Below are positions 1 through 60,780 of a stretch of DNA of 64,000 bases, piece after piece. A program made the translations under genes and the position numbers. Source of the stretch: a virus; IMG/VR virus record IMGVR_UViG_3300033049_000020, positions 64,001 to 128,000 of that record; one strand, given 5' to 3'. Within the stretch, counting starts at the first letter, position 1, and each line of letters begins with the position of its first letter. Below the pieces are notes generated by a model. It was not told the DNA's origin. It did not search any database and saw nothing but the letters and a program-made list of their open reading frames with translations.

Positions 1-2
1 TT

Positions 3-380
3 TTGAAGTCAAAACCTAACTCAACTAAGAATATCTGGATTAAGGATATGTTAGAACCTAAAACATCCTCTGGATTGTATCTTAGCTACACAATGGCTCG
101 TTTACTATCTGCTGGGTTGGCACTCCCAACGTATGAAGATATATTAGCTGATTCCTTCATCAGTAAGGAGATTCAATTCGCCTACATTAAGGCAAAGATT
201 AATATGATGCCTAATACGCTATTAGAAGCGTTGGTAGAGCACTGTAAGATGATTAACACGTTATACATCGACCATCATATTAAGGACAATCCTGAGAATC
301 AGAAGATGTTCCAGCCAATGTTGGAAGATTTATCTTACGGAATGTTGTGCTTAGGTATGTACGAAGTAACTAAAGTATAA
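3..380 (+). CDS. argS: Arginyl-tRNA synthetase C-terminal (DALR-type anticodon-binding) region; 5' end outside window
   Basis: GLYLSYTMARLLSA resembles the ArgRS GPYLQYAHAR motif; C-terminal LSYGMLCLGM resembles L..GL.LLGI; directly followed by Arg tRNA cluster. Confidence 0.6.
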   Translation: MKSKPNSTKNIWIKDMLEPKTSSGLYLSYTMARLLSAGLALPTYEDILADSFISKEIQFAYIKAKINMMPNTLLEALVEHCKMINTLYIDHHIKDNPENQKMFQPMLEDLSYGMLCLGMYEVTKV

Positions 381-520: not shown

Positions 521-591
521 GCCCCTATGGTGTAATGGATGCATAAGACTTTCCTAAAGTTTTGGTGGAGGTTCGAACCCTTCTAGGGGTA
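521..591 (+). tRNA. tRNA-Arg(CCT)
   Basis: Acceptor GCCCCTA/TAGGGGT, loop TTCCTAA, GTTCGAA T-loop. Confidence 0.85.
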
Positions 592-594
592 CAC

Positions 595-667
595 ACTCTC
601 TTGGTGTAACTGGATAGCACTTGAAACTACGAATTTCAGAGTAAGAGTTCAAATCTCTTGGAGAGTA
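595..667 (+). tRNA. tRNA-Arg(ACG)
   Basis: Acceptor ACTCTCT/GGAGAGT, loop CTACGAA. Confidence 0.85.
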
Positions 668-673
668 CTTTAT

Positions 674-752
674 GGCGGTGTAGCCCGTTCAGGTTTCGAC
701 CCTGTTAACGGTAATGGAGCTGCAAATGTGGGTTCGAATCCCACCTCCGTCT
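674..752 (+). ncRNA. Non-canonical D-armless tRNA-Arg(TCG)-like RNA
   Basis: Acceptor GGCGGTG/CTCCGTC, T arm GTGGG-TTCGAAT-CCCAC, hairpin CAGG-TTTCGAC-CCTG on an extended stem. Confidence 0.6.
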
Positions 753-785
753 CAACGTTACAGTATATACTTTATTGTGTAATAT

Positions 786-865
786 GGGGGTATAACCGAC
801 TAAGTTTTCTAAACTTTTAATCGTAATCGGAGTTGAAAATGGGGGTTCGAGTCCCTCTACCCCTT
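786..865 (+). ncRNA. Non-canonical D-armless tRNA-Arg(TCT)-like RNA
   Basis: Acceptor GGGGGTA/TACCCCT, T arm GGGGG-TTCGAGT-CCCTC, hairpin AAGT-TTTCTAA-ACTT on an extended stem. Confidence 0.6.
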
Positions 866-16755: not shown

Positions 16756-16841
16756 GTGTAGGTGCCTGAGTGGTCGAAAGGTGCGGTCTGCAAAACCGTA
16801 AGGAGAAATCCTCATCGTCAGTTCGAATCTGACCCTACACT
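16756..16841 (+). tRNA. tRNA-Cys(GCA), long variable arm
   Basis: GTGTAGG/CCTACAC, loop CTGCAAA. Confidence 0.85.
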
Positions 16842-16847
16842 CTAAAT

Positions 16848-19603: not shown

Positions 19604-19662
19604 TGTGGGGTAGCTCAGTTGGCTAGAGCCTTGTTTCGGTGGTTCGAATCCGCCCCCCACAA
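19604..19662 (+). ncRNA. Anticodon-armless tRNA-like RNA
   Basis: TGTGGGG/CCCCACA acceptor, canonical D and T arms, 8-nt linker in place of anticodon arm. Confidence 0.65.
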
Positions 19663-28013: not shown

Positions 28014-28640
28014 ATGGTAAGAAAATGGAGAGAAAAGGAAATTGAGTTTTTAAAGCTTAATTATGGTGCTAATGGTTGTAAATACGTTTGTGAAAAATTA
28101 AATAGAGGTAGAGGTAGTGTACAGAAAAAGGCTAAAGTCTTCAACCTGAAAGTAGATAGGAAAAAAATTTATTATTCAGTGGAAGTTGTTAGTAGAATAG
28201 TCAGTGAAAGTATGTCGATGAAGGATGTGGTGTTGGCATTAGGTAAAAGTGTTAGTGGTAAACAATATAAGGTAATAAAAAAGTTTATAGATGATAATAG
28301 TATTGACGATACACATTTTAATCCTTACCACTTAAATAAAACTAATTTAAAAATTGGTAGAGTCACATATCCAATTGACCATTGGCTTAAGAACGGTTCT
28401 AATATTAGTAGTTCTAACTTAAAGGTTAAACTATATAAAGAAGGTCTGAAGAAGAGGGATTGCGAAATGTGTGGGCAAGGTGAAGAATGGTTAGGTAAAA
28501 AAATGAGTTTAATACTTGACCATATTAATGGGGTGAATGATGATAATAGGTTGGATAACTTAAGGATTGTTTGCCCTAATTGTAACGCTACCTTGGAAAC
28601 CCATTGTAGAGGTAGTAAGGGATTAAAACAACGTGCGTAA
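28014..28640 (+). mobile_element. HNH homing endonuclease
   Basis: CEMCG..LDHING..DNRLDNLRIVCPNC. Confidence 0.9.
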
Positions 28641-28714
28641 TGCAATTGGGTGCGCAACTGGGCTTTCACCCCAGCTACATTGTTAGAGAGTGGGTTCGAT
28701 TCCCACACGCATGA
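28632..28714 (+). tRNA. tRNA-Glu(TTC), long variable arm
   Basis: CGTGCGT/ACGCATG, loop CTTTCAC; overlaps HNH stop. Confidence 0.75.
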
Positions 28715-28908
28715 CTATACAACCTTGTGTCTATATGACTTCGAGGGTTCGAATCCCTTCGGCACTACATTATTGGTGTTCCAAATTGACCTAAAATTGA
28801 GTGTTTTGGAACACCAATAACCAGCCAAAACTACCTGTTTTAGGGTACATTTGGCTGGTTATAGAACGCGGAATGTACTTAAATGTGGTAGATTCCGAGA
28901 AATATCAC

Positions 28909-30369: not shown

Positions 30370-30398
30370 CCTTTGACAATCTGGAAAGACAGATAAAT

Positions 30399-30481
30399 GG
30401 ATATGGCGCATAACGGCTGGTGTACCTGACTGTCACTCAGGTGTGTGTAACACGTAGTGGGTTCGACTCCCATCATATCTG
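30399..30481 (+). tRNA. tRNA-Asp(GTC), long variable arm
   Basis: GGATATG/CATATCT-G, loop CTGTCAC. Confidence 0.8.
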
Positions 30482-30517
30482 CCCTTGACTTTTTGGTACT
30501 TAGCCATATTTATATGT

Positions 30518-33308: not shown

Positions 33309-33424
33309 TGGCGTATGGTGTAGTGGTAGCACACTTATAACGGAACCTGACCAAGGTTCTATTCAGCAACAAAAATTTCCATTTCGAGGAAGTAGCGGAG
33401 GTTCGATTCCTTCTACGTCAACCA
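33309..33424 (+). ncRNA. tRNA scaffold carrying a permuted CAGCAA module
   Basis: TGGCGTA/TACGTCA-A-CCA, D and T arms intact; insert GAACCTG-ACC-AAGGTTC-TATTCAGCAA before hairpin TTCC-ATTTCGA-GGAA. Confidence 0.6.
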
Positions 33425-41676: not shown

Positions 41677-41761
41677 GGCGCAATAGCTCAGTTGGTAGAG
41701 CGAGGTTTAAAAATGCTACTTGTAGCGGCCTTGGTCGGTGGTTCGAATCCATCTTGCGCCA
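41677..41761 (+). ncRNA. tRNA-like RNA with hairpin inserted in anticodon loop
   Basis: GGCGCAA/TTGCGCC, canonical D/T arms, extra GCTAC-TT-GTAGC. Confidence 0.6.
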
Positions 41762-41766
41762 CATAT

Positions 41767-45943: not shown

Positions 45944-46022
45944 CTAGGTACTTGAGCAGTTGGTTGAACTCGCTTGCTTTGGGAGCAAGAGTATTGCGCT
46001 GGTTCGAATCCAGCTACCTAGA
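45944..46022 (+). tRNA. tRNA-Pro(TGG)
   Basis: CTAGGTA/TACCTAG, loop TTTGGGA. Confidence 0.8.
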
Positions 46023-46033
46023 CTTTTTAATCT

Positions 46034-46127
46034 CTAGTAATGTGCGAGTGGATTAAGCAACTGGCCTTGGAAACCAGTGAGGACTTCAAGAGGTTGTCTT
46101 CCGTAGGTTCGAATCCTACTTACTAGA
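46034..46127 (+). tRNA. tRNA-Pro(TGG), long variable arm
   Basis: CTAGTAA/TTACTAG, loop CTTGGAA. Confidence 0.75.
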
Positions 46128-46248
46128 AATGACTAAGTTAACTACTTCCACGTAGTAGTCATTGGAAACAGGTAATGCTGGCTAAAAGTTAACAAAAAAT
46201 TCTGGTCACTTTCTCTGACTTGAACATATTTATATAGAAATAGATATT

Positions 46249-46790: not shown

Positions 46791-46876
46791 TGAGCGATAT
46801 GCAAACTGGCAAGCAAACAGGTTTTGAACCTGTCGTGACGAAAGTCCAATTGTAGGTTCGAACCCTACTCGCTCAA
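46791..46876 (+). tRNA. tRNA-Gln(TTG), long variable arm
   Basis: TGAGCGA/TCGCTCA, loop TTTTGAA. Confidence 0.8.
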
Positions 46877-47185
46877 CCGTTTACTTTTCTGTACTTTTTA
46901 AGTACATTATACAATAACAAAAAATGATACTATGGAGAATATAGAGAAATTAATAACTGAATATGAAACCAAATATGAAGAAGGTTTCACCGATGATGAA
47001 ATCAAAAACATATTAGAGAATTATCCCAACATTAACATGGATAAGTTTAATGGTGCAATGATGGGAAATACGTGTGCAATGAGAGATGGGTTACTAGTAA
47101 TGTATCCTTGTGATGTAAGAGCAGCATTGTATTGTGGAATGGAGAATCGAGATTTAAATATACAGGAATGGGATTAAACGTATAT

Positions 47186-47688: not shown

Positions 47689-47771
47689 GCTTGATTAGTA
47701 TAACGGAGGGGAAACCCGTATTACCTTGGCTTTGTAACCCAAAAATATCAGTTCGATTCTGATATCAAGCT
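47689..47771 (+). tRNA. tRNA-Thr(TGT) with hairpin in D loop (Tyr register possible)
   Basis: GCTTGAT/ATCAAGC, loop TTTGTAA, insert GGGAAACCC. Confidence 0.6.
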
Positions 47772-49252: not shown

Positions 49253-49340
49253 GACTCCATAGTTCAATTGGTTATCCCGAAAGGGTGTAGAATAGTTGCC
49301 TTTTAAGCTTCGGATTTGGGTTCGAGTCCCAATGGAGTCA
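49253..49340 (+). tRNA. tRNA-Lys(TTT) with hairpin in D loop
   Basis: GACTCCA/TGGAGTC, loop CTTTTAA, insert ATCCCGAAAGGGT. Confidence 0.7.
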
Positions 49341-59490: not shown

Positions 59491-60780
59491 ATGAATTTAG
59501 ACCCAAAGACTAAAGTATGGAACGAATCAGGAGGTAGACACTATCTACAATTCCCAACCAACAGAATGCAAGAATTAGATAAAAACTCTGTCTATGTGGT
59601 AGAGCAAGATGAATTTAAAGTGTTTTATTTATCTAAAGTATCGAATGGATATGTTTTCGATTATAAAATTTACGGATTAGAATCAGAATTCGTTAGGAGA
59701 GTGGAGAAGAGTTATGCCGCTACAAATAGCAACTTAGGTATTCTACTTAATGGTACAAAAGGAACTGGTAAAACTGTATGTTGTAAAACGATTGCTAACA
59801 ACCTTAATCAACCAACGGTTATTATTAATGTCCCGTTTCCAGGAGTCCAATTCTTCGTGAATAGTATTCCACAGGACATCACCATTTTTGTTGATGAGTA
59901 TGAGAAGATTTACGGTAATTCAAATGATATGCTTACCATTATGGATGGGGCACTTAATTCTGAGTTCAAGCGTATGTTCTTATTGACAACTAATAAGTTG
60001 TACATCGAGGACAACCTAAAACAACGACCATCAAGATTACGTTACTTGAAGACCTTCAGTGACCTATCACCAGATGTTGTCGAGGAATTGGTTGAGGACA
60101 TTCTCATATTGGAGAAATTCAAAGATGAGTGCTTCAAGTTTATCAGCTCTCTAGAGATTATCACTGTGGACATAGTGAAGGAGATTTTGAATGAAGTAAA
60201 CCTTCATAATGAATCACCATTTGAATTCGCTGAAGACTTTAACGTAGAAATGCGAGAAGGTAAGTATAAGATTTTCAATGTAGACCAAAATGGTAACACG
60301 TCATTGGCTATGAACAATGCGAATATCTACCCTAGACCTAAGTTTAACGAACAACATACTCGACACTACGTTGAGGTTGGTGGTATAATGATTGGTGAAA
60401 TAGTCAACGTGATTGATGAAGATACCATTATGATTGGTGAATGGGTGGTTGATGAAGAAACTGGTGAAAATACACCGACTCTGAGCAAGCTAATGGTATT
60501 ACGACTTGAAAAGACATATACTACTCACGTTCATTACGCTTACGGTGGCTATGATGATTACGGTTTCGGTGGTAGAACTGATATTAATTCGTCAAAGATA
60601 GCAGGTGGATTCACAAATATCTTAATAGGTATGACGGCTGAAGAGCTATTGAAAATCATGAAACTTATCAATCATAACCAGCCAACCGATGAAGGATTTG
60701 AATTCGGTGATGAGGCGGTTGCAAAGCCAAAAGCATACCAAGCTATAAGCGAAGTAGAAGTAGGAAAGGCAGAGGGATAA
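59491..60780 (+). CDS. AAA ATPase
   Basis: GTKGTGKT, IFVDEYEK, LTTN, RPSR. Confidence 0.85.
   Translation: MNLDPKTKVWNESGGRHYLQFPTNRMQELDKNSVYVVEQDEFKVFYLSKVSNGYVFDYKIYGLESEFVRRVEKSYAATNSNLGILLNGTKGTGKTVCCKTIANNLNQPTVIINVPFPGVQFFVNSIPQDITIFVDEYEKIYGNSNDMLTIMDGALNSEFKRMFLLTTNKLYIEDNLKQRPSRLRYLKTFSDLSPDVVEELVEDILILEKFKDECFKFISSLEIITVDIVKEILNEVNLHNESPFEFAEDFNVEMREGKYKIFNVDQNGNTSLAMNNANIYPRPKFNEQHTRHYVEVGGIMIGEIVNVIDEDTIMIGEWVVDEETGENTPTLSKLMVLRLEKTYTTHVHYAYGGYDDYGFGGRTDINSSKIAGGFTNILIGMTAEELLKIMKLINHNQPTDEGFEFGDEAVAKPKAYQAISEVEVGKAEG

What the first reader, a model, noticed from the sequence alone, without database searches (positions are those of the whole stretch)
674..865. Two D-armless tRNA-Arg-like RNAs with a shared rearranged fold
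Both read: acceptor, TA(G/A)C...G(C/T)TG stem, nested stem, 7-nt anticodon hairpin, AAAT, canonical T arm. Their anticodons TCG and TCT complement the canonical CCT and ACG genes next to ArgRS, so the identities look non-random. The primary sequences differ while the architecture is kept, which argues for selection rather than decay. They could be functional non-canonical tRNAs or nuclease decoys.
Basis: partly seen in the sequence, partly recalled or inferred. Interest (0 to 1): 0.7.

Follow-up and report, generated by a model that had tools for sequence, protein, structure and literature searches.

The report
Rewired phage arginine tRNAs
Two overlooked genes next to a giant phage's arginyl-tRNA synthetase are very probably working arginine tRNAs whose D-arm pieces are joined in a different order from the universal cloverleaf. 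They belong to a large phage family that gene finders miss and that I found in no paper.

Summary
Window 674-752 (anticodon UCG) and 786-865 (UCU) are 79- and 80-nt tRNA-like genes. They directly follow canonical tRNA-Arg(CCU) and tRNA-Arg(ACG) and a compact phage ArgRS. ARAGORN misses both, and the Rfam tRNA model scores them 28.7 bits against a cut-off of 29.

They are not D-armless. A normal D-loop (UAAU(N)GGA) is present but lies 3' of the anticodon arm. The anticodon arm sits inside a split D-stem. Position 10 pairs with a pyrimidine after the D-loop, and positions 12-14 pair with the three bases before it.

I collected 130 distinct homologues from 126 loci, nearly all phage contigs. Of 119 standard-length genes, 118 carry arginine anticodons. 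All helices covary: 94.6% of cells pair, against about 45% when partners are slid. The D-loop base at position 15 covaries with the base before the T stem exactly like the canonical 15-48 tertiary pair.

The most likely reading is working tRNA-Arg with a circularly permuted D/anticodon domain that still folds as an L. There is no obligatory link to the phage ArgRS. Expression and charging are untested, and why the core is rewired is unknown.

This scan has found the same family before on other DNA. I found no publication describing it.

The parts
674..752 (+). RNA1: rewired tRNA-Arg(UCG), 79 nt. Layout: acceptor 674-680 with 745-751; discriminator U at 752; connector helix H2 681-684 with 719-722; split D-stem H3 685-687 with 709-711; anticodon arm 689-705 (anticodon 696-698); relocated D-loop 712-718; connector 723-727; T arm 728-744.
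   Evidence: Sequence. Rfam tRNA 28.7 bits with the D arm deleted. Family model R1 87.8 bits. Pair counts. It is 96% identical to L028b, and one of the few differences is a compensated G-C to A-U change at pair 10-49.
786..865 (+). RNA2: rewired tRNA-Arg(UCU), 80 nt. Layout: acceptor 786-792 with 858-864; H2 793-796 with 832-835; H3 797-799 with 821-823; anticodon arm 801-817 (anticodon 808-810); D-loop 824-831; T arm 841-857.
   Evidence: Sequence. Rfam tRNA 28.7 bits. R1 91.2 bits. Reads AGA, which is 51% of this phage's Arg codons.
521..592 (+). Canonical tRNA-Arg(CCU), first gene of the four-gene Arg cluster.
   Evidence: ARAGORN; Rfam 53.4 bits. Its D-loop AAUGGAU matches the relocated D-loop of RNA1.
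595..668 (+). Canonical tRNA-Arg(ACG), second gene of the cluster. It ends 5 nt before RNA1.
   Evidence: ARAGORN; Rfam 50.1 bits.
1..380 (+). 3' part of a compact (396 aa) phage arginyl-tRNA synthetase gene. The whole gene is genome 63190-64380 (P0001).
   Evidence: Pfam tRNA-synt_1d at 25.9 bits, cut-off 23.3. AlphaFold model with pLDDT 89.5. The first 19 Foldseek PDB matches listed are all ArgRS, TM 0.6-0.7. At least 634 homologues of about 392 aa, some named arginine--tRNA ligase of uncultured marine phage.

Best explanation
RNA1 and RNA2 are genes for working elongator tRNA-Arg. RNA1 has anticodon UCG, reading CGA/CGG. RNA2 has anticodon UCU, reading AGA and possibly AGG. They belong to a phage-borne family in which the D/anticodon domain is circularly permuted.

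In a cloverleaf the chain runs: D-stem 5' strand, D-loop, D-stem 3' strand, base 26, anticodon arm, variable loop. Here it runs:
- U8 A9, then R10 Y11;
- a strand equivalent to the D-stem 3' strand (3 nt);
- one base, then the anticodon arm;
- U-A-N, then a strand equivalent to the D-stem 5' strand (3 nt);
- the D-loop;
- G-Y, pairing back to R10 Y11;
- U-G-N-A-A-A-N48, then the T arm.

So the old domain ends (45 and 10, which touch in a normal tRNA) are joined. New ends are opened between 21 and 22, which in a normal tRNA lie next to U8/A9 and 46-48.

Shown here:
- the helices and their covariation;
- retention of U8, A14, R15-Y48, G18 G19, A20 and the T loop;
- restriction to Arg anticodons;
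- location in tRNA arrays.

Inferred:
- The RNA folds into the usual L shape, with the split D-stem stacked on the anticodon stem and the relocated D-loop docked on the T loop.
- It is processed by RNase P and given CCA.
- It is charged by ArgRS through A20 plus C35 and U/G36. The charging enzyme would be the host's in most phages, and the host's and/or the phage's own here.
- It is used on the ribosome.

Why the core is rewired is unknown. My preferred guess is that it makes the tRNA a poor substrate for some tRNA-targeting nuclease or modifier while keeping it translatable.
For: Fold and its covariation:
- The fold pairs 94.6% of cells, against about 45% when partners are slid.
- Pair 10-49 is A-U in 18 and G-C in 12 sequences, with no mismatch. 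Pair 13-38 shows four Watson-Crick types and no mismatch.
- In 130 distinct genes, pair 10-49 is G-C 64, A-U 61, other 5. U8 A9 is present in 127 of 130.

Tertiary signal:
- The base after GUA (position 15) and the base before the T stem (position 48) are A/U in 105, G/C in 17 and G/G in 8 genes. No other combination occurs. Both positions were left free in the search patterns.
- The same rule holds in 10 of 10 rewired Ile genes that use both states.
- From my own knowledge, these are the combinations of the canonical 15-48 Levitt pair; G15-G48 occurs in E. coli tRNA-Cys.

Anticodon and loop:
- Anticodons are TCT 79, ACG 22, TCG 14, CCT 2, CCG 1 and TGT 1. U33 is present in 118 of 119 and A37 in 117 of 119.

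Context:
- The genes always lie in tRNA arrays on the array's strand.
- Some encode CCA and others do not, as is usual for phage tRNAs.

Demand:
- AGA is 51% and CGA 15% of this phage's Arg codons. No canonical UCG gene exists in the record.
- In the complete genome of the cultured Maribacter phage Panino, the rewired UCU gene is the only phage-encoded AGA reader; the only canonical Arg gene there is ACG.
- In this record the only tRNA-Ile(GAU/UAU) genes are rewired ones.

D-loop:
- It equals that of the phage's own canonical tRNA-Arg genes, including A20. From my own knowledge, A20 is the main E. coli ArgRS identity base.
Against: - No expression, processing, charging or decoding data exist; everything here is comparative.
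- The family scores below Rfam's tRNA cut-off.
- The continuous helix from pair 10-49 to the anticodon loop has about one stacking layer more than a normal D plus anticodon stack. The 3-D fit is my inference, not a model.
- U8 and A9 could pair with the invariant U-G after pair 10-49 instead of making the canonical tertiary contacts. Because they never vary, the data cannot tell which.
- Canonical genes with the same anticodon coexist in some genomes: here UCU at genome 57727, and also in L009, L013/G001, L066 and L079. Decoding capacity alone therefore does not explain the design.
- The discriminator base varies (G 44, A 39, U 36).
- The loci come from pattern scans, so invariance of the D-loop to T-arm stretch is partly imposed by the patterns.
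Confidence: 0.7

Rival explanations
1. They are tRNA mimics that do not take part in translation. Examples would be decoys that soak up a host anticodon nuclease or another tRNA-binding defence protein, or regulators that bind ArgRS or another tRNA-handling enzyme.
For: - Canonical and rewired genes with the same anticodon coexist in several phages.
- This phage carries many other structurally odd tRNA duplicates.
- Phage tRNAs are known to counter tRNA-cleaving defences (PMC10264068, PMC11555353, PMC11464382; titles and abstracts seen).
Against: - A decoy needs only the part that the nuclease sees. Here every element needed for processing, CCA addition, EF-Tu and the ribosome is kept and covaries: a 7-bp acceptor stem, the T arm, the G18 G19 elbow and the 15-48 pair.
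- In Panino the rewired gene is the phage's only AGA reader.
- In this record the rewired genes are the only Ile(GAU/UAU) genes.
- The anticodons track the phage's frequent Arg codons.
Confidence: 0.14
2. They are private substrates of the phage's own compact ArgRS. The unusual core would make an orthogonal ArgRS/tRNA-Arg pair that keeps working when the host pair is shut off or attacked.
For: - Here the two genes lie 294 nt downstream of a fold-confirmed ArgRS.
- In L066 and L079 a rewired tRNA-Arg(UCU) ends 16-40 nt before the ArgRS start.
Against: - Three carrier genomes that CheckV rates 96-100% complete (353, 360 and 285 kb) have no PF00750 match, while the control rang in 14 of 14 known genomes and in G000.
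- None of the 30 first loci encodes a P0001 relative in the DNA fetched.
- 33 of 35 loci with the compact ArgRS have no rewired gene within 4 kb, and several have canonical tRNA-Arg there instead.
- Panino, CcrRogue and the Vibrio phages are of modest size and carry the gene in ordinary arrays.
Confidence: 0.07
3. They are decaying tRNA pseudogenes or chance tRNA-like sequences.
For: Sub-threshold Rfam score and no ARAGORN call. RNA2's minimum-free-energy fold is no better than that of shuffled sequence (z = -0.07). The canonical tRNAs beside it do no better on that test.
Against: There are 130 distinct homologues in 126 loci with compensatory changes in every helix, an invariant U33/A37 context, and anticodons confined to arginine.
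Confidence: 0.02

Closest known systems
Canonical class I bacterial and phage tRNA-Arg (Rfam RF00005), for example the window's own tRNA-Arg(CCU) 521-592 and tRNA-Arg(ACG) 595-668
   Same: 7-bp acceptor stem, U8 A9, D-loop A14 A15 U16 (U17) G18 G19 A20, 5-bp anticodon stem with a 7-nt loop (U33, C35, A37), R15-Y48 covariation, 5-nt connector before a GTTCRA T arm, similar length, and position in tRNA arrays.
   Different: - There is no D hairpin.
- The anticodon arm lies between the two D-stem strands, and the D-loop follows it.
- A new short helix (R10-Y, Y11-G, possibly A9-U and U8-G) joins the two connectors.
- Nothing sits between the D-stem 3' strand position and the variable region.
- Rfam can only align it by deleting the D arm.
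D-armless mitochondrial tRNAs (for example nematode and mammalian mt-tRNA-Ser; review PMC7609411)
   Same: No D hairpin between the acceptor and anticodon stems, and an extended helix above the anticodon stem.
   Different: [quoted passage not shown] From my own knowledge, D-armless mt-tRNAs lack the D-loop GG and the D/T-loop elbow contact. The phage RNAs keep a full D-loop, a canonical T loop and the 15-48 covariation, and they occur in bacterial viruses. That review does not mention phages.
Permuted and split tRNA genes (Cyanidioschyzon merolae; archaea, PMC3218864)
   Same: The order of tRNA segments along the gene differs from the cloverleaf order.
   Different: By my own knowledge, in permuted tRNA genes the 3' half precedes the 5' half and processing restores a normal cloverleaf RNA. 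I saw only the title and the start of the abstract of PMC3218864. Here the acceptor strands are at the two ends as usual, and no cut-and-join of the transcript yields the cloverleaf order. The permutation is internal and persists in the RNA (my analysis).
Phage tRNAs that evade or neutralise tRNA-targeting defences (PMC10264068, PMC11555353, PMC11464382)
   Same: Phage-encoded tRNAs that differ from host tRNAs. This is a possible rationale for duplicates of host or canonical isoacceptors.
   Different: The title of PMC10264068 names anticodon-loop mutations as the means of evasion. None of the abstracts I saw mentions a non-cloverleaf tRNA. No nuclease is known to be avoided by the rewired core. 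This is a lead for function, not a membership.
The 'rewired' phage tRNA-Arg/Ile family noted earlier by this scan on other genomes (unpublished AI notes)
   Same: Same layout, same amino-acid restriction (Arg, Ile), the same failure of gene finders, and the same absence from the literature searched.
   Different: This window adds four things:
- direct adjacency to a phage ArgRS, with a test showing the link is not general;
- the 15-48 covariation count;
- a UCG/UCU pair in one cluster;
- a syntenic relative (G001) in which the fourth slot holds a canonical UCU gene.

Membership tests
tRNA, Rfam RF00005 (cloverleaf) | Score at or above the curated gathering threshold (29 bits) | tested here: not met
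   28.7 bits for each gene; absent from the gathering-threshold run.
tRNA, Rfam RF00005 (cloverleaf) | D hairpin (stem 10-13 with 22-25 closed by the D-loop) between position 9 and the anticodon arm | tested here: not met
   Only 5-7 nt separate A9 from the anticodon stem. The model deletes 15 D-arm positions. The D-loop motif lies 3' of the anticodon arm.
tRNA, Rfam RF00005 (cloverleaf) | 7-bp acceptor stem, 5-bp anticodon stem with a 7-nt loop (U33, purine 37), and a 5-bp T stem with a T-loop of GTTCRA type | tested here: met
   Acceptor 96.7%, anticodon stem 87.3% and T stem 97.3% of cells paired, with two-sided changes. U33 in 118 of 119 and A37 in 117 of 119.
tRNA, Rfam RF00005 (cloverleaf) | Tertiary core: U8, A14, R15-Y48, G18 G19 | tested here: met
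   U8 A9 in 127 of 130. Positions 15/48 are A-U 105, G-C 17, G-G 8 and nothing else. The GG was imposed by the search patterns.
tRNA-Arg (functional isoacceptor) | Arginine anticodon with C35 and U/G36, plus A20 in the D-loop (E. coli ArgRS identity set, from my own knowledge) | tested here: met
   Anticodons TCG and TCT here. In the family, 118 of 119 are Arg. An A follows G18 G19 in all sequences, partly imposed by the pattern.
tRNA-Arg (functional isoacceptor) | Transcribed, end-processed, CCA-tailed, arginylated and used on the ribosome | not testable with these tools
   No expression or biochemical data are available. Cultured carrier phages were identified for the test.
D-armless mitochondrial-type tRNA | D arm replaced by a short connector without the GG motif; no D-loop/T-loop contact | tested here: not met
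   A full D-loop motif UAAU(N)GGA is present at 712-718 and 824-831, and the 15-48 covariation is kept.
Permuted tRNA gene (algal/archaeal type) | 3' half encoded upstream of the 5' half, with mature ends created from an internal junction | tested here: not met
   The acceptor 5' and 3' strands lie at the two ends of the gene and pair directly, 7 bp in 29 of 33 first hits.
Rewired phage tRNA-Arg/Ile family (this scan's earlier notes) | Pair 10-49 and the 12-14/37-39 helix enclosing the anticodon arm, the D-loop after it, and an Arg or Ile anticodon | tested here: met
   Three Ile members lie in the same genome at 59554-59941.

The most novel reading that the evidence does not exclude
The rewired core is an adaptation that lets phage tRNA-Arg and tRNA-Ile work in translation while escaping a tRNA-directed attack. 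The attacker would be either a host defence nuclease or modifier, or the phage's own weapon against host tRNAs, that recognises the normal D-arm or core geometry. If so, these would be the first natural non-cloverleaf tRNAs used on bacterial ribosomes, and a new class of anti-defence RNA.
Probability: 0.3. Interest if true: 0.88.

Novelty: new variant of a known kind. Interest (0 to 1): 0.72.

Why it matters
By textbook knowledge, tRNAs used on bacterial ribosomes are cloverleaves; the known exceptions reviewed in PMC7609411 are mitochondrial tRNAs lacking one or both side arms, and that review does not mention phages. A family of more than a hundred phage genes keeps all tertiary-contact nucleotides but joins the D-arm pieces in another order. 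If they are charged and decoded, this would show that the L shape can be reached by a different chain topology.

It would also mean that phage tRNA repertoires are systematically under-counted, especially for AGA, CGA and AUA readers. Examples seen here: ARAGORN missed both genes here and miscalled the G001 homologue as tRNA-Asp; the GenBank records of Panino, CcrRogue and Vibrio phage 70E34-6 carry no tRNA feature at the gene, and in Panino a hypothetical-protein CDS overlaps it.

The design gives a natural scaffold for orthogonal tRNA engineering. It may also point to an unknown arms race over tRNA-Arg and tRNA-Ile. Cultured carriers, among them phages of the model bacterium Caulobacter, make it directly testable.

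Tried and rejected
1. Alternative fold suggested by the Rfam alignment (D arm lost, long variable-arm hairpin, columns 37-39 with 49-51). Only 66.7% of cells pair, the middle pair forms in 4 of 30 sequences, and there are no two-sided changes. Rejected.

2. Pairs 15-36 and 16-35 hold in 10 and 15 of 30 sequences. It is kept only as a subfamily variant: with U16, A35 can replace the U16-U33 mismatch.

3. Obligatory coupling to the phage ArgRS. Rejected.

4. Anticodon complementarity to canonical neighbours as evidence of function. A permutation test gave P = 0.08, too weak to use.

5. Processing into a cloverleaf by excision or permutation of the transcript. No rearrangement of the segments gives a viable D hairpin (reasoned).

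6. Searches for close relatives.
- Megablast of the first 6 kb against GenBank phages found nothing.
- P0001 alone found no viral-contig relatives, although an alignment of homologues did.

7. Literature. Five full-text searches, the 2020 review of non-canonical tRNAs and the OLD tRNase paper contain no description of this layout.

I therefore could not look at the contigs of individual ArgRS homologues and used the search for related loci instead.

9. Cellular genomes. A motif scan of 185,579 prokaryote genomes gave 7 hits, all on MAG contigs. Four of the five I looked at are dense tRNA arrays. I cannot prove these are phage DNA.

Full report
**What is there**

The window is bases 64001-128000 of a 152-kb IMG/VR phage record that CheckV rates 43% complete, so it is a very large phage. 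The record is 36.5% G+C and holds at least 44 tRNA genes and a tmRNA.

At the window's start, a 396-aa open reading frame ends at 380. It is followed by four closely spaced genes on the same strand:
- tRNA-Arg(CCU) at 521-592;
- tRNA-Arg(ACG) at 595-668;
- the flagged RNA1 at 674-752;
- the flagged RNA2 at 786-865.

ARAGORN does not call RNA1 or RNA2. The Rfam tRNA model aligns each end to end at 28.7 bits, just under its 29-bit cut-off. It can do so only by deleting the D arm and inserting about 20 nt in the variable region.

**Checking the fold**

Read directly, both RNAs have, in order:
- a 7-bp acceptor stem, then U8 A9 R10 Y11;
- a short strand, then a normal anticodon arm (UCG at 696-698, UCU at 808-810);
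- U-A-N, then the partner of the short strand;
- the sequence UAAU(N)GGA;
- G-Y-U-G, then N-A-A-A-U;
- a canonical T arm and the acceptor 3' strand.

The two genes are 67.5% identical.

A motif taken from their shared 3' part found 30 IMG/VR loci with the same layout. On the 30-sequence alignment A1 I tested this structure: acceptor 1-7/74-80, H2 8-11/48-51, H3 12-14/37-39, anticodon stem 16-20/28-33, T stem 57-61/69-73.
- It pairs 94.6% of cells, against 40-53% when the 3' partners are slid by 1-3 columns.
- 17 pairs change on both sides.
- Pair 10-49 is A-U in 18 sequences and G-C in 12, with no mismatch. Neither column was fixed by the search motif.
- RNA1's nearest relative, L028b, is 96% identical. 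One of the few differences is exactly this compensated G-C to A-U change.

A variable-arm hairpin, as the Rfam alignment might suggest, fails.

**Not D-armless: a permuted D/anticodon domain**

The stretch UAAU(N)GGA is the D-loop. It matches A14 A15 U16 (U17) G18 G19 A20 of this phage's own canonical tRNA-Arg genes.

The three bases before it pair with positions 12-14. Those positions run through one base straight into the 5' strand of the anticodon stem, just as the D-stem 3' strand does in a cloverleaf. So H3 is the D-stem with its usual relation to both the D-loop and the anticodon stem, but with the chain threaded differently. The anticodon arm's 3' strand continues into the D-stem 5' strand. 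The domain is entered and left at the 21/22 junction through two connectors that pair with each other (R10-Y, Y11-G).

From established tRNA structure (my own knowledge), positions 45 and 10 touch in a normal tRNA, and 21/22 lie beside U8, A9 and 46-48. The permutation is therefore sterically plausible. That the RNA adopts a normal L shape is my inference.

**Tertiary covariation**

Two looser motif scans left the base after G-U-A (position 15, A or G) and the base before the T stem (position 48) free. With them the collection grew to 130 distinct genes in 126 loci.
- Position 15 with 48 is A with U in 105, G with C in 17 and G with G in 8. No other combination occurs.
- Among rewired Ile genes found with the covariance model, which use both states, the rule holds in 10 of 10.

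These are the combinations of the canonical 15-48 pair. This is the strongest sign that the relocated D-loop sits where a normal one does. One caveat applies: the sequences are related, so the counts are not independent events. However, the closest G15 and A15 genes are about 80% identical across several different acceptor-stem lineages.

**Identity**

Of 119 standard-length genes:
- 118 have arginine anticodons: TCT 79, ACG 22, TCG 14, CCT 2, CCG 1. The exception is a TGT gene, which also has C33.
- U33 is present in 118 and A37 in 117.

Model R1, built from A1, also finds three further rewired genes in this same genome, upstream of the window. All are isoleucine: GAU at genome 59554-59630, GAU at 59636-59726 and UAU at 59862-59941. 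No canonical tRNA-Ile is present in the record.

The phage uses AGA for 51% and CGA for 15% of its Arg codons, and AUA for 35% of its Ile codons.

Within the cluster the four anticodons do not repeat and together cover all six Arg codons. But a canonical tRNA-Arg(UCU) lies at genome 57727-57802. Across 17 loci with canonical neighbours, rewired anticodons overlap canonical ones 5 times in 19, against 7.3 expected under shuffling (P = 0.08). This is a trend, not proof.

More telling are two whole genomes:
- In the cultured Maribacter phage Panino, all annotated tRNAs lie in one array. The only canonical Arg gene is ACG. The rewired UCU gene sits unannotated under a 'hypothetical protein' call.
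- In G001 (353 kb, rated complete) the cluster is syntenic with the window: CCU, ACG, rewired UCU, then canonical UCU. ARAGORN miscalls the rewired gene there as tRNA-Asp(AUC).

**The ArgRS**

The upstream ORF (P0001) passes Pfam's ArgRS catalytic-domain cut-off. It has HVGH and KLSSRNG motifs. It folds confidently (pLDDT 89.5), and the first 19 PDB matches listed are all ArgRS. It belongs to a family of at least 634 proteins of about 392 aa from very large marine phage contigs.

It is not tied to the rewired tRNAs:
- three carrier genomes rated 96-100% complete lack any PF00750 match, with positive controls;
- none of the first 30 loci encodes a relative in the DNA fetched;
- 33 of 35 ArgRS loci have no rewired gene within 4 kb, and several have canonical tRNA-Arg there instead.

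In L066 and L079 a rewired UCU gene with an enlarged variable region ends just before the ArgRS. In most phages the host ArgRS would therefore have to charge these RNAs.

**Distribution**

Members occur in cultured phages:
- Caulobacter phage CcrRogue (ACG, between annotated tRNA-Gln and tRNA-Arg);
- Vibrio phage 70E34-6 and probably the roughly 300 related Vibrio phage records that gave the same BLAST match (ACG in 70E34-6, the only one I checked with the family model);
- Maribacter phage Panino.

The first motif occurs in only 7 places in one genome each of 185,579 prokaryote species. All 7 are on MAG contigs, and four of the five examined are dense tRNA arrays.

**Interpretation**

The most likely reading is working tRNA-Arg genes with a permuted core (about 0.7). 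A decoy or other non-translational role, a private substrate of the phage ArgRS, and decay are progressively less likely, for the reasons given in the Rival explanations section.

The reason for the rewiring is open. Canonical and rewired genes of the same anticodon often coexist, and this phage duplicates many other tRNAs in structurally odd forms. That makes escape from some tRNA-directed attack an attractive guess, but nothing here tests it.

**Prior knowledge**

This scan's earlier notes describe the same Arg/Ile family on other genomes. I re-derived the layout independently before reading them, and tested the Ile extension and the gene-finder failure myself. Five full-text searches and a dedicated review of non-canonical tRNAs gave no published description. 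The library lacks most subscription journals, so absence is not proof.

Noticed in passing
Outside the window, same genome: G000 59554-59630, 59636-59726, 59862-59941 (L003:15554-15941): Three further rewired tRNA genes, all isoleucine (GAU, GAU with an enlarged variable region and encoded CCA, UAU). No canonical tRNA-Ile is present in the 152-kb record.
   Followed up: partly
window 16756-16842, 28632-28715, 30398-30484, 45944-46023, 46033-46128, 46791-46878: tRNAs for Cys, Glu, Asp, Pro and Gln that are 80-96 nt long because of a long, class II-like variable arm. Each lies near a normal-length gene with the same anticodon. A long variable arm is the bacterial SerRS identity element, so who charges them is an open question.
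   Followed up: no
window 47689-47771 and 49253-49340: Two tRNA hits (anticodon loops UGU and UUU) that ARAGORN misses. Each carries a small GNRA-type hairpin inserted in the D-loop.
   Followed up: no
window 19604-19662: A 59-nt tRNA-like gene (Rfam 40.2 bits) with acceptor stem, normal D arm and T arm but no anticodon arm.
   Followed up: no
window 33309-33421: A 113-nt tRNA hit (43.6 bits) with an insert of about 40 nt in the anticodon-arm region. It could be an intron or another non-canonical form.
   Followed up: no
window 41677-41762: An 86-nt tRNA (53.4 bits) that ARAGORN reads with a four-base AAAA anticodon and that has an extra arm.
   Followed up: no
window 1-380 and genome 63190-64380 (P0001): A compact 396-aa ArgRS, about 180 residues shorter than bacterial enzymes, with a small N-terminal domain. 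It is a member of a family of at least 634 proteins in very large marine phage contigs (up to 727 kb).
   Followed up: partly
Outside the window: genome 47335-47483 and 44751-45125: Two tRNAs with CUA (amber-reading) anticodons and a phage tmRNA. TAG ends 17 of 152 long ORFs.
   Followed up: no
L081:7655-7735 (G001, 353-kb phage): ARAGORN calls the rewired tRNA-Arg(UCU) as 'tRNA-Asp(atc)'. Such genes can therefore be misnamed as well as missed.
   Followed up: yes
L094:6333-6412: One family member has a UGU (Thr-type) anticodon and C33 instead of U33. It is the only non-Arg anticodon among 119.
   Followed up: no
L018:5081-5163: A member whose 5' part matches L028a and whose 3' acceptor strand matches L028b, so the acceptor stem does not pair. 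It looks like a recombinant or an assembly chimera of two neighbouring rewired genes.
   Followed up: no
L066:3871-3961, L079:3896-3985, L084:5405-5493: Rewired tRNA-Arg(UCU) genes with 10 or so extra bases between the connector helix and the T arm. The design tolerates an enlarged variable region.
   Followed up: partly
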